A stretch of 32,000 nt of DNA from Candidatus Baldrarchaeota archaeon. Its GTDB lineage: Archaea; Asgardarchaeota; Baldrarchaeia; Baldrarchaeales; DXJG01. The position numbers were made by a program, and so were the translations under genes. Positions 12,883 through 19,942 of this stretch are shown piece after piece. The first letter of the stretch is position 1; each line of letters opens with the position of its first letter. The notes beneath the pieces are model-generated. The model did not search any database, was not told the DNA's origin, and worked only from the letters and a program-made list of their open reading frames with translations. Location: NCBI GenBank assembly GCA_019056805.1, contig DXJG01000001.1, positions 30,001 to 62,000 on the forward strand, in the 5' to 3' direction.

Positions 12883-14315
12883 TTATTTTTTAAGACTACA
12901 GTATTCTCGAATATTAATGTACTCGTAGGCATCGGTTAGACTATCGAAACAGTAGTGAACTTTTTGGAAGGCTTTTCTAAATTCGACAACATCTTTAGCA
13001 ACATCTTTGGGATTCTCTTCATTAAATACGATTCTTTTAATAAATTCTGCTATTTCCTCCATGTCGGATTCTTTCATTCCTAATCTAGTAACTTCACTAA
13101 CTCCTAGACGAATACCTCCAGGTCGTTTATAATCTCTTCCAACTCTTTTGTCCCATGGAAGCAAATTCCGATTAATTATAATGTTGGCTTCCTCTAATTT
13201 TTTCTCAACTGTCATACCGTCCTTCAGCGGTGTTTCACTAATGTCTACGAGAATCGTATGTGATTCCGTAAATCCTTTATGTTCAGCGAGAACCTTAAAC
13301 CCTCTTTCGTACAAGGCTTGGCCTAAGGCTTTAGCGTTTTTAATGATTTGACCGGCATACTCGCTACCAAAAGCAAGCATCTCTGCAAAGGCTACAGCTT
13401 TTGGTAGCAGCAGAATTATCTGCTGCTATTCCCAGCAACTAGGTGCAAATGATGATTGCTCATGGTAGACGGGAAAGCTGCTTTTTTGAGTTCCTCAGCA
13501 TATTTGCTATGCGAGAGGACCGTTCCTCCTTGTGGTCCTGGCAATGTTTTGTGTGTACTTATCGTGAAAACGTCCGCCCCTTCTCTTAAGGGGTCTTGGA
13601 ATTTTCCACCGGCAATAAGTCCTGCAACGTGTGCTCCATCGAAGTGTATATATGCACCGATTTCATCTGCAATTTCTCTAATTTCTTTTACTGGTTCTGG
13701 AAATAGAAATACGCTGGCTCCCATTATGAATAATTTTATATGTTTTCCTTCCTTTGCGAGTTTTTTAACTCGTTTTGCTGTTCCATCTACATCGATGTTC
13801 ATTTCTTTCTCGTCAAAGGCAAAATAGTGTACTTTTAAGCCCCTGACTTTCCCCGCCGTGCCCCAGAGTTTTTTCTTTGCATAGCTTATGTGGCCGCCCG
13901 AGGGAATTGAAATACTCATTATATGATCTCCAGGTTCGGTAAAAGCTGAATATACTATTAAATTTGCAATCACTCCGCTTATGGCGCGGACATCAGCAAA
14001 TTCTGCTTTAAATAATTTTTTAGCTAACTCAATAGCTATTTCTTCTACTTGATCTATATAGATACATCCAGCATAAACGCGTTCGCCGGGCCAACCTTAC
14101 CGGTCCCAGTTTAACTGGGACTTTCGGCGTATCTGTTTCCGAAATCGCTGCATAAACATTCTCGAACTGCTGGACTTGGAATGTTTTTCCGACCCAGCCT
14201 TCTATGCTGGGTTTTCGGAAGCTATTAGTGGAATTGTGCTTCGGAACCACTGATGATGTTCTTTTAATAGTTCAAATATTTTATCGTAGTATTTCTTTGC
14301 TTCTTGTTCTTCCAT
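12883..14315 (-). CDS. glyA: Serine hydroxymethyltransferase; 4 exons (14315-14214, 14185-14123, 14096-13429, 13399-12883), 449 aa after splicing
   Basis: LIASEN, RYAEGWPG, GGHIS, DGAHVAGL, STHKTLPGPQGG, SNHHLH, GIRLG. 1433 nt minus 83 nt of introns = 1350 nt. SD GGAGGG upstream of ATG 14315. Confidence 0.93.
13400..13428 (-). other. Relaxed BHB intron 3 of glyA (29 nt)
   Basis: 9-bp stem AGCAGCAGA/TCTGCTGCT, helix TGGG/ACCA with one G.A mismatch; excision gives GGG AA|A GCT (AGKA). Confidence 0.8.
14097..14122 (-). other. BHB intron 2 of glyA (26 nt)
   Basis: Helix GCCG/CGGU, bulges AAA/AAG, 7-bp stem GTCCCAG/CTGGGAC; excision gives GCC GAA|GGT TGG (YAEGW). Confidence 0.9.
14186..14213 (-). 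other. BHB intron 1 of glyA (28 nt)
   Basis: Helix TCCG/CGGA, bulges AAA/AAA, 7-bp stem ACCCAGC/GCTGGGT; excision gives TCC GAA|AAC ATT (SENI). Confidence 0.9.
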
Positions 14316-14725
14316 TTCTTTCCCTCCTGGTATAATTATGTTAAAATTATTTCTTGAACTTATCAATATGTTTGTTTTAGCGGTAGTTAAATTCTTGGTC
14401 CCGTGGTTTATATAAGCTATCCTTTGCTATTTTTAAAGGGAAACTCATTTGTATATGCCTCTTTCTCTCTACGTATTTGTTCAATTATAAATTTAAGTAA
14501 TGAAGCAATTTGTAGGCCTTTTTGTGGATATTATTAGGTGATTGGTTTTGTGGTTAGGTCGATTTACAAAACTTAAGATGATTCTGGTATAGTTTCTTTC
14601 TCTCTTTATGTTACAATCTTAGTTTATGCGTGTACAAAGAACCCTGCTTGTTGTGTTAAAAGAAAGATTAATATTTTGAATTAATTTAATAATTTTGACA
14701 ATTTAAGTATTTGAGGTGTAATTTA

Positions 14726-19331: not shown

Positions 19332-19942
19332 ATGAAGGAGAAAGGAAAAATAATAGAAATACGAAGTCATGGTCGAGGTGGACAAGGTGTGGTTATTTTT
19401 TCTGAACTCTTGGCAAAAGCTGCATATTTAGATGGCTATATGGCGCAGTCGTTCCCATTTTTCGGCGCAGAAAAGGCAGTTCTTCTCTGAAAGGACTGCC
19501 TCTGCAGAGGCGTGGAGCCCCCTTAATGGCTTTCACACGAATTAGTGATAAAGAGATTTTGTTAAGAAGCCAAGTTTATAATCCTGATATCGTTGTTGTT
19601 TTGGACCCAGTTATCTTAGAGCTAGTAAATGTCACTGATGGATTAAAAGCTGATGGATGGTTGATTGCAAACACTCCAAAGAAACCAGAAGAACTTGGTT
19701 TAAACGGGTCTTTTAAAATCGCAACCGTTGATGCTACCGGCATTGCATTGGAATTAAATCTAAAAGTTGCAGGTTTCGCTGTAGTCAACACACCGATGTT
19801 AGGAGCGTTTTCCAAGGCTACGAAATTAGTGTCACTTGAATCGGTCAAAAGAGTTATTTTAGAGGAATGGAAAGGTGAACTAGCGGAGCTAAATGCCAAA
19901 GCAGCTGAGCTAGCCTTCGAAAAAACTATTGTAAAAGTTTAG
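19332..19942 (+). CDS. porG: 2-oxoacid (pyruvate-type):ferredoxin oxidoreductase gamma subunit; 2 exons (19332-19472, 19508-19942), 191 aa spliced
   Basis: HGRGGQG, FGAE|RRGAP, NTPMLGA. 611 nt minus 35 nt = 576 nt. Confidence 0.92.
19473..19507 (+). other. Canonical BHB intron of porG (35 nt)
   Basis: Helix GCAG/CTGC, bulges AAA/AGA, 11-bp stem; excision gives GCA GAA|AGG CGT (AERR). Confidence 0.92.

What the first reader, a model, noticed from the sequence alone, without database searches (positions are those of the whole stretch)
14097..14122. glyA intron 2: 26-nt BHB inside YAEG, creating a 63-nt micro-exon
RNA: AC-GCCG-AA^A-GUCCCAG-UUAAA-CUGGGAC-CGGU-AA^G-GU. Splicing restores R-Y-A-E-G-W-P-G. 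Only 63 nt (14185-14123, 21 codons) separate it from intron 1, so the two BHBs must be processed side by side; skipping this exon would keep the frame (inference).
Basis: seen in the sequence. Interest (0 to 1): 0.85.

Follow-up and report, generated by a model that had tools for sequence, protein, structure and literature searches.

The report
tRNA-type intron inside Asgard glyA
The serine hydroxymethyltransferase gene of this Asgard (Baldrarchaeia-like) archaeon is broken by three tiny hairpin introns of the kind normally cut out of tRNAs; the one examined here leaves a 63-base internal exon, so the mRNA very probably must be cut and rejoined several times, which published work reports for only one archaeal coding sequence (cbf5).

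Summary
Observation confirmed. Window 14122-14097 (minus strand, 26 nt) interrupts glyA between Glu55 and Gly56 (RYAE|GWPG). With its flanks it forms the canonical archaeal bulge-helix-bulge: helix GCCG/CGGU, bulges AAA and AAG, a 7-8 bp intron stem and a 2-bp outer helix. Cutting after the second nucleotide of each bulge restores a gap-free 449-aa SHMT. It is one of three such introns (28, 26, 29 nt); exon 2 is 63 nt.

Eight related sequences carry all three introns. Intron 2 is 26 or 27 nt, its loop varies freely, two stem pairs covary, and the BHB core is invariant. The spliced frame has dN/dS 0.02 at dS about 2. The genome encodes EndA alpha and beta subunits and RtcB. An independent DNA data set holds the same sequence.

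No RNA data were available, so splicing is inferred. Exon-2 skipping is arithmetically in frame but untested.

New here: the identical nucleotide site carries an unrelated 32-nt BHB intron in a Bathyarchaeia clade. A second site five codons downstream is shared by Atabeyarchaeia and another Bathyarchaeia MAG. The gene tree rejects common descent of the carriers.

This scan has already noted similar mRNA introns in this genome and in other Asgard genomes. I found no paper describing them.

The parts
14214..14315 (-). glyA exon 1 (ATG at 14315; 34 codons, ends ...LIASE)
   Evidence: gap-free alignment to uninterrupted homologues
14186..14213 (-). glyA intron 1, 28 nt, BHB: UCCG-AAA-ACCCAGC...GCUGGGU-CGGA-AAA
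   Evidence: same site in 8 relatives, 27-28 nt. A second register (26 nt) also folds but does not restore SHMT
14123..14185 (-). glyA exon 2, 63-nt internal micro-exon (NIPSPAVRECLCSDFGNRYAE)
   Evidence: the 21 residues are identical in G000, G001 and G003 despite synonymous changes
14097..14122 (-). glyA intron 2, 26 nt: the finding
14094..14130 (-). Complete BHB motif of intron 2: outer helix AC/GU (14130-14129 with 14095-14094), central helix GCCG/CGGU (14128-14125 with 14102-14099), bulge AAA (14124-14122), intron stem GUCCCAG/CUGGGAC (14121-14115 with 14109-14103), loop UUAAA (14114-14110), bulge AAG (14098-14096)
   Evidence: read from the sequence; fold in the 131-nt context forms both BHB cores; 100% of cells paired in 6 distinct sequences
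13429..14096 (-). glyA exon 3 (668 nt; Pfam SHMT profile positions 51-283)
13400..13428 (-). glyA intron 3, 29 nt, BHB with a G.A mismatch in the central helix (UGGG/ACCA); bulges AAU and AAA
   Evidence: restores HLVAG|KAVAF
12883..13399 (-). glyA exon 4 with stop codon (Pfam SHMT profile positions 299-399)

Best explanation
[quoted passage not shown] After transcription, the last exon-2 nucleotides (GCCG) pair with the intron's 3' end (CGGU). This gives a 4-bp helix flanked on opposite strands by two 3-nt bulges, and it stacks on the 7-8 bp intron hairpin. The heterotetrameric (alpha-beta)2 splicing endonuclease cuts after the second nucleotide of each bulge (GCCGAA^A and CGGUAA^G). RtcB then joins the 2',3'-cyclic phosphate of exon 2 to the 5'-OH of exon 3, giving ...GCC GAA|GGU UGG... 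and releasing a 26-nt intron. The same happens at intron 1 (63 nt upstream) and intron 3, so exon 2 needs two ligations. Shown here: the geometry, exact restoration of the protein, conservation with covariation, purifying selection on the spliced frame, and the presence of the enzymes. Inferred: the cleavage and ligation themselves, their order and their efficiency.
For: (1) Geometry and exact frame and motif restoration. The spliced 449-aa product aligns without gaps to 18 uninterrupted homologues across LIASEN|IPSPAV and NRYAE|GWPGERVYAG. The exon pieces hit consecutive parts of Pfam SHMT.
(2) Two congeneric genomes and six metagenome contigs (92-94% aa identity) carry the intron at the same nucleotide. 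Its length is 26 or 27 nt and the loop is unalignable. Stem pair 2 is U-A, U.G or C-G. Stem pair 6 is A-U in G000 and U-A in G003. The central helix and bulges are invariant.
(3) dN/dS is 0.023-0.024 at dS about 2 between G000 and G001 or G003.
(4) The four degenerate codons that build the exonic half of the BHB (TAC, GCC, GAA | GGT) are codon-invariant in all 9 sequences, against 27.7% gene-wide. The same holds for 4 of 4 at intron 1.
(5) The genome encodes an EndA paralogue with the Tyr/His/Lys motif and a second one lacking the His, both with Pfam endonuclease N and C domains, plus RtcB. Asgard (alpha-beta)2 EndA with the L1 loop is reported to have broad specificity (PMC5829648).
(6) A DNA contig of an independent study covers 14056-14400 with no differences.
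(7) Other BHB interruptions in the same genome restore known motifs: porG in this window, and infB, pcm and pyrG. ARAGORN finds only 12 uninterrupted tRNA genes.
(8) BHB geometry this good occurs at 5.7e-6 per position.
Against: There is no RNA evidence. In G000 the local minimum-free-energy fold pairs exon-2 CGCCG with exon-3 CGGCG instead of the intron's CGGU: -21.7 against -15.2 kcal/mol for the BHB at 37 C, and -5.7 against -4.5 at 75 C. The outer exon-exon helix is only 2 bp, a relaxed motif. Covariation rests on two stem positions in six distinct, closely related sequences, and the shuffle control is not significant (159 of 500). How a free 63-nt exon with two reactive ends would be kept from circularising or being skipped is unknown.
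Confidence: 0.87

Rival explanations
1. The interrupted glyA is a decaying pseudogene and the divergent SHMT paralogue elsewhere in the genome does the work; the hairpin inserts are junk.
For: A second SHMT-like gene exists at G000:C9:~422,000 and is uninterrupted.
Against: dN/dS is 0.02 at saturated dS over all four exons, with no stop or frameshift in any exon in 9 sequences. The paralogue is only 40% identical and lacks the YAEGWPGE motif. The inserts keep an exact BHB while their loops drift.
Confidence: 0.02
2. The insert is skipped by the ribosome (programmed translational bypass, as in phage T4 gene 60) or handled by some other recoding, not by RNA splicing.
For: It is a short insert with a stable hairpin next to the take-off point and an in-frame stop four codons in.
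Against: There are no matching take-off and landing codons: GAA before the insert, and GUAA, not GAA, at its end. Three inserts of 26-29 nt in one gene all fit BHB cut sites exactly. The constraint extends to the CGGU and AAG elements, which bypassing would not need. The enzymes for BHB splicing are present.
Confidence: 0.03
3. EndA cuts the BHBs but the pieces are not rejoined. The motifs would then be processing or decay sites that lower glyA expression, as proposed for the 5'-UTR BHB of Haloferax HVO_1309.
For: The outer exon-exon helices that could hold the exons together are weak: 1-2 bp. A BHB in a non-tRNA, non-coding mRNA region is known (PMC7714728).
Against: Without ligation no full SHMT could be made. 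Yet all four exons are under strong purifying selection in one continuous spliced frame, and the cut sites are exactly those that restore it.
Confidence: 0.05
4. Assembly or sequencing artefact, or a small mobile DNA repeat inserted in one assembly.
For: The window comes from a metagenome-assembled genome.
Against: Identical sequence is present in contigs of two samples of one study and in a contig of another study. Homologous introns are present in 8 other assemblies. The intron sequences have no other copy in the genome.
Confidence: 0.01

Closest known systems
cbf5 pre-mRNA intron of Crenarchaeota (Aeropyrum, Sulfolobus; Watanabe 2002, Yoshinari 2006, Yokobori 2009 = PMC2738675)
   Same: A short BHB-type intron inside a protein-coding sequence, in a lineage with a hetero-oligomeric splicing endonuclease. 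It is present in some relatives and absent in others.
   Different: A different gene (glyA) and a different phylum (Asgard). There are three introns in one gene and an internal 63-nt exon that needs two ligations, whereas cbf5 has one intron. Splicing of cbf5 was shown by RT-PCR and in vitro; here it is inferred.
Multi-intron tRNA genes of Thermoproteales and of Asgard Atabeyarchaeia/Freyarchaeia (PMC11291895; bioRxiv 10.64898/2026.10.13.758758)
   Same: Several BHB introns in one transcript, very short internal exons, non-canonical positions and relaxed motifs. This genome also has mostly interrupted tRNA genes.
   Different: In tRNA the mature fold holds the exons together. In an mRNA nothing comparable is known, and the reading frame adds a constraint of single-nucleotide precision.
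BHB intron in the 5' UTR of Haloferax volcanii HVO_1309 (PMC7714728)
   Same: EndA acts on an mRNA.
   Different: That intron lies in the untranslated leader, so it does not interrupt a coding frame.
HAC1/XBP1 unconventional mRNA splicing (Ire1 cleavage, RtcB or Trl1 ligation)
   Same: Spliceosome-independent cut-and-ligate splicing of a coding mRNA through 2',3'-cyclic phosphate and 5'-OH ends. The XBP1 intron is also 26 nt.
   Different: The endonuclease is Ire1, which recognises twin stem-loops, not EndA on a BHB. That splicing is regulatory, whereas the intron here looks constitutive.

Membership tests
Archaeal BHB (EndA-type) intron | [quoted passage not shown] | tested here: met
   GCCG/CGGU between AAA and AAG. 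Read from the sequence; all pairs kept in 6 distinct sequences.
Archaeal BHB (EndA-type) intron | Flanking helices h (exon side) and h' (intron side) | tested here: met
   h' is 7-8 bp (GUCCCAG/CUGGGAC). h is only 2 bp (AC/GU), so this is the relaxed form.
Archaeal BHB (EndA-type) intron | Cutting after the second nucleotide of each bulge gives the functional product | tested here: met
   The join GCCGAA|GGTTGG restores a gap-free SHMT. The cut rule was derived from the canonical 37/38 tRNA intron (established knowledge).
Archaeal BHB (EndA-type) intron | Structure, not sequence, is conserved: covariation, free loop, indels | tested here: met
   Stem pair 2 is U-A, U.G or C-G. Stem pair 6 is A-U or U-A. 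The loop is unalignable and the length is 26 or 27 nt. The sample is small and the shuffle control is not significant.
Archaeal BHB (EndA-type) intron | Splicing endonuclease and RtcB ligase encoded by the host | tested here: met
   EndA alpha-like and beta-like genes and RtcB all score above the Pfam cut-offs. Catalytic Tyr/His/Lys were read by eye in one paralogue only.
Archaeal BHB (EndA-type) intron | Removal from the RNA observed (junction reads, circular intron, in vitro cleavage) | not testable with these tools
   No RNA run was listed for this DNA.
Programmed translational bypass (T4 gene 60 type) | Matching take-off and landing codons flanking the gap | tested here: not met
   The take-off codon is GAA. 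The insert ends ...CGGUAA and no GAA precedes GGU.
Serine hydroxymethyltransferase (Pfam PF00464) | Full-length match to the family profile with the conserved motifs | tested here: met
   Exon 3 matches profile positions 51-283 (E 8e-41) and exon 4 matches 299-399 (E 1e-19). SEN...YAEG...THKT motifs are seen in the spliced product.

The most novel reading that the evidence does not exclude
glyA intron 2 marks a recurrent insertion site. The same nucleotide position (Glu55|Gly56) holds an unrelated 32-nt BHB intron in a Bathyarchaeia clade. A second position five codons downstream (inside the Glu60 codon) is occupied both in Atabeyarchaeia and in another Bathyarchaeia MAG. The gene tree rejects common descent of the carriers in both cases. 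This points to a site-selective way of gaining BHB introns in mRNAs, for example reverse action of the endonuclease and ligase at proto-BHB sites followed by reverse transcription, or transfer between co-resident archaea. It would operate in Asgard and TACK archaea whose housekeeping genes carry many such introns, including multi-intron genes with micro-exons.
Probability: 0.35. Interest if true: 0.9.

Novelty: new variant of a known kind. Interest (0 to 1): 0.78.

Why it matters
In the papers I could search, tRNA-type splicing of an archaeal coding sequence is described for only one gene, cbf5, with a single intron.

Here a central one-carbon-metabolism gene of an Asgard archaeon, the group closest to eukaryotes, needs three such splicing events and has a 63-nt internal exon. 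It sits in a genome where several other housekeeping genes and most tRNA genes are interrupted in the same way.

If confirmed by RNA data, three things follow:
- Split genes with internal exons and obligatory mRNA splicing exist in archaea.
- Gene callers systematically truncate such genes. They see a 226-aa fragment here.
- Reuse of the same insertion site in unrelated lineages gives a concrete handle on how BHB introns are gained, which is an open question.

Tried and rejected
RNA evidence: no RNA holder was listed for this DNA in either search. The one read-laying run could therefore use only DNA contigs. These showed the intron-containing form and no joined form.

Rfam and ARAGORN found nothing in the window.

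Genome-wide census by 'BHB geometry plus ORF restored after removal': it had no power. Controls that removed L+1, L-1, L+2 or L-2 nt passed as often as the true cut. One cause is that hairpins between adjacent same-strand genes also merge ORFs. The other is that micro-exons fail length thresholds. Only a short list of strong cases could be read by eye, so I give no total number of introns.

Mobile-repeat idea: the three introns have no other copy in the genome.

Cross-pairing of intron 1's 5' half with intron 2's 3' half, which could drive exon skipping: the stems share CCCAG/CUGGG in G000, but the register leaves unequal bulges. The similarity is also absent in the relatives. Rejected as a canonical BHB.

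L181 looked like an intron at codon 60/61, but it is a 1-nt frameshift in an A run.

Full report
**What is there.** The gene on the minus strand from 14315 to 12883 is a serine hydroxymethyltransferase (glyA) broken into four open pieces. In RNA the region reads AC-GCCG-AAA-GUCCCAG-UUAAA-CUGGGAC-CGGU-AAG-GU. The helix GCCG/CGGU is 4 bp. The two 3-nt bulges lie 3' of each strand of that helix, on opposite strands. The intron hairpin stacks on one side and a 2-bp exon-exon helix (AC/GU) on the other. This has the handedness and spacing of the canonical archaeal bulge-helix-bulge. In a 37/38 tRNA intron, nucleotides 32-35 form the central helix, 36-37 plus the first intron base form bulge 1, and the last two intron bases plus 38 form bulge 2, so both cuts fall after the second bulge nucleotide (established knowledge). 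Applying that rule removes 14122-14097 and joins GCC GAA to GGT TGG.

**The whole gene.** Two more inserts obey the same rule. One is 14213-14186: 28 nt, UCCG-AAA...CGGA-AAA. The other is 13428-13400: 29 nt, with a central helix UGGG/ACCA that contains one G.A mismatch. Removing all three gives a 1350-nt frame of 449 codons without stops. Exon 2 is 63 nt, and introns 1 and 2 are both phase 0. The spliced protein aligns without a single gap to 18 uninterrupted archaeal SHMTs across LIASEN|IPSPAV, NRYAE|GWPGERVYAG and HLVAG|KAVAF. Exons 3 and 4 match consecutive parts of Pfam SHMT. In a 131-nt fold, both BHB cores of introns 1 and 2 form independently, about 50 nt apart.

**Is it more than chance?** I scanned both strands of the 1.92-Mb genome for the BHB geometry. 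Motifs at least as good as intron 2 occur 22 times in 3.85 million positions, real introns included. Here such a motif lies on the single position that restores the frame, and this happens three times in one gene.

**Organism and enzymes.**
- The window is contig C6:30001-62000 of a 91%-complete genome.
- Its two congeners are deposited as 'Candidatus Baldrarchaeota Yap30.bin4.67' and 'Candidatus Odinarchaeota AUK032', so this is an Asgard archaeon.
- The genome has two EndA-family genes, each with the Pfam N and C endonuclease domains. One carries the Tyr/His/Lys catalytic residues and the other lacks the His, both read by eye. This fits the (alpha-beta)2 enzyme reported for Asgard and TACK archaea, which has broad substrate range (PMC5829648).
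- RtcB is present.
- ARAGORN finds only 12 uninterrupted tRNA genes, as in the intron-rich Atabeyarchaeia (PMC11291895).

**Comparative evidence.** Both congeners and six metagenome contigs (92-94% protein identity) carry all three introns at the same nucleotides.
- For intron 2 the central helix, both bulges and the base of the stem are invariant.
- The loop cannot be aligned, and the length is 26 or 27 nt, a difference no translated sequence could tolerate.
- Stem pair 2 is U-A, U.G or C-G, and stem pair 6 is A-U in G000 and U-A in G003.
- With only six distinct sequences, the shuffle control is not significant (159 of 500). The slide control is clean: 100% paired against 12-60%.
- The spliced frame has dN/dS 0.023-0.024 at dS about 2 between G000 and the congeners. 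The 21 residues of exon 2 are identical despite synonymous changes.
- Only 27.7% of conserved degenerate codons are codon-invariant in the nine sequences. Yet all four codons that build the exonic half of BHB 2 (TAC, GCC, GAA | GGT) are invariant, as are four of four at intron 1. This is the signature of an RNA-level constraint on top of the protein-level one.

**Not an artefact, not a repeat, not a pseudogene.** DNA contigs from two samples of one study cover the region without differences. A contig from another study covers 14056-14400, including introns 1 and 2, also without differences. The introns have no other copy in the genome. A second SHMT-like gene exists, but it is 40% identical and lacks the YAEGWPGE motif. 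The interrupted gene is therefore the canonical orthologue.

**Weak points.**
- There is no RNA evidence.
- In G000 the local minimum-free-energy fold prefers pairing exon-2 CGCCG with exon-3 CGGCG over the 4-bp central helix: -21.7 against -15.2 kcal/mol at 37 C, nearly equal at 75 C. In the relatives this competitor is weaker (CGCC/GGUG).
- After intron removal, that same helix would close a loop of about 10 nt holding the two exon ends, which resembles an anticodon arm. It might help ligation, but that is speculation.
- The outer helix is only 2 bp.
- How a free 63-nt exon escapes circularisation or skipping is unknown. Skipping would stay in frame but would delete the conserved SPAVRE...NRYAE segment.

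**Wider context found on the way.**
- The window holds a fourth BHB intron in porG (19473-19507), which restores FGAE|RRGAP.
- Strong BHB motifs elsewhere in the genome restore GGI|TQHIGA (infB), TISAP|HMVA (pcm) and KIDP|YLNVDPGT (pyrG). The motif identities there are from my own knowledge.
- Searching all fetched glyA loci for breaks showed that the very same site, Glu55|Gly56, carries a 32-nt BHB intron (GCGG-AAA-stem-CCGC-AUG) in a Bathyarchaeia clade: CAZSNM010000014.1 and four metagenome contigs. Its stem is unrelated, and it has a compensatory G-C for C-G in the central helix.
- A second site, after the first base of the Glu60 codon (CUGG-AGA...CCAG), is occupied in Atabeyarchaeia (CP147780.1 and relatives) and in Bathyarchaeia MAG JAWCNH010000136.1, whose sister lacks it.
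- I built a glyA tree from the residues downstream of the sites. On it, carriers of each site fall in two separate well-supported clades. Forcing them together is rejected: p-AU 1.5e-5 and 4.5e-4. The groups were named after seeing the tree. Parallel gain at identical nucleotides, or many losses of very old introns, is needed.

**Literature.** The searchable literature describes a coding-sequence BHB intron only for crenarchaeal cbf5, plus a 5'-UTR case in Haloferax (PMC2738675, PMC7714728). Abundant tRNA introns in Asgard archaea are described (PMC11291895; bioRxiv 10.64898/2026.10.13.758758). I found nothing on Asgard mRNA introns or on Baldrarchaeia introns. Earlier notes of this scan report similar introns in this genome (pyrG, fbp, atpD, pcm, infB) and in other Asgard genomes. 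These are unchecked AI notes, not independent support.

**Verdict.** This is very probably (about 0.87) an EndA/RtcB-spliced intron. It is a new variant of the cbf5 kind: three introns in one mRNA, an internal micro-exon, and a site that has been colonised independently in another phylum.

Noticed in passing
window 19473-19507 (+): A 35-nt BHB intron (GCAG-AAA-11-bp stem-CUGC-AGA) interrupts the pyruvate:ferredoxin oxidoreductase gamma-subunit gene. Removing it restores ...SFPFFGAE|RRGAPLMAF.
   Followed up: partly
L108:1468-1500 (CAZSNM010000014.1, Bathyarchaeia MAG); also L122, L124, L125, L127: glyA of a Bathyarchaeia clade carries a 31-32-nt BHB intron at exactly the same nucleotide as the window's intron 2 (YAE|GWPG), with an unrelated stem. 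The gene tree and AU test reject a common clade with the Baldrarchaeia carriers.
   Followed up: yes
L009:~1475-1520 (CP147780.1, Atabeyarchaeum), L010, L011, L195; L054:~833-864 (JAWCNH010000136.1): A second glyA intron site, after the first base of the Glu60 codon (WPGE|RVYAG; CUGG-AGA...CCAG), is occupied in Atabeyarchaeia and in one Bathyarchaeia MAG whose sister (L205) lacks it.
   Followed up: partly
window 14186-14213 (-): Intron 1 can fold in two BHB registers because of the A runs: UCCG/CGGA (28 nt) or CCGA/UCGG (26 nt). Only the 28-nt register restores SHMT. The 26-nt register gives a frame that happens to stay open for 52 codons.
   Followed up: partly
window 14125-14129 with 14084-14088 (-): Exon-2 CGCCG can pair with exon-3 CGGCG (GGUG in relatives). 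This competes with the BHB before cleavage. After cleavage it would close a loop of about 10 nt that holds the two exon ends, like an anticodon arm.
   Followed up: partly
G000 whole genome: ARAGORN finds only 12 uninterrupted tRNA genes, and 31 when introns are allowed, so most tRNA genes seem to be interrupted. Strong BHB motifs also restore conserved motifs in infB (C10:39157), pcm (C17:48219) and pyrG (C9:155049).
   Followed up: partly
G000:C9:~421,950-423,090 (+): An uninterrupted SHMT-like paralogue, 40% identical to glyA, has HRYVNP---HNVYGG in place of NRYAEGWPGERVYAG. Its function is unclear.
   Followed up: partly
L042 (~2474-2493) and L181 (~1195-1205): Two further breaks in glyA homologues. 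L181 is a 1-nt frameshift in an A run, not an intron. The L042 break near residue 385 was not examined.
   Followed up: partly
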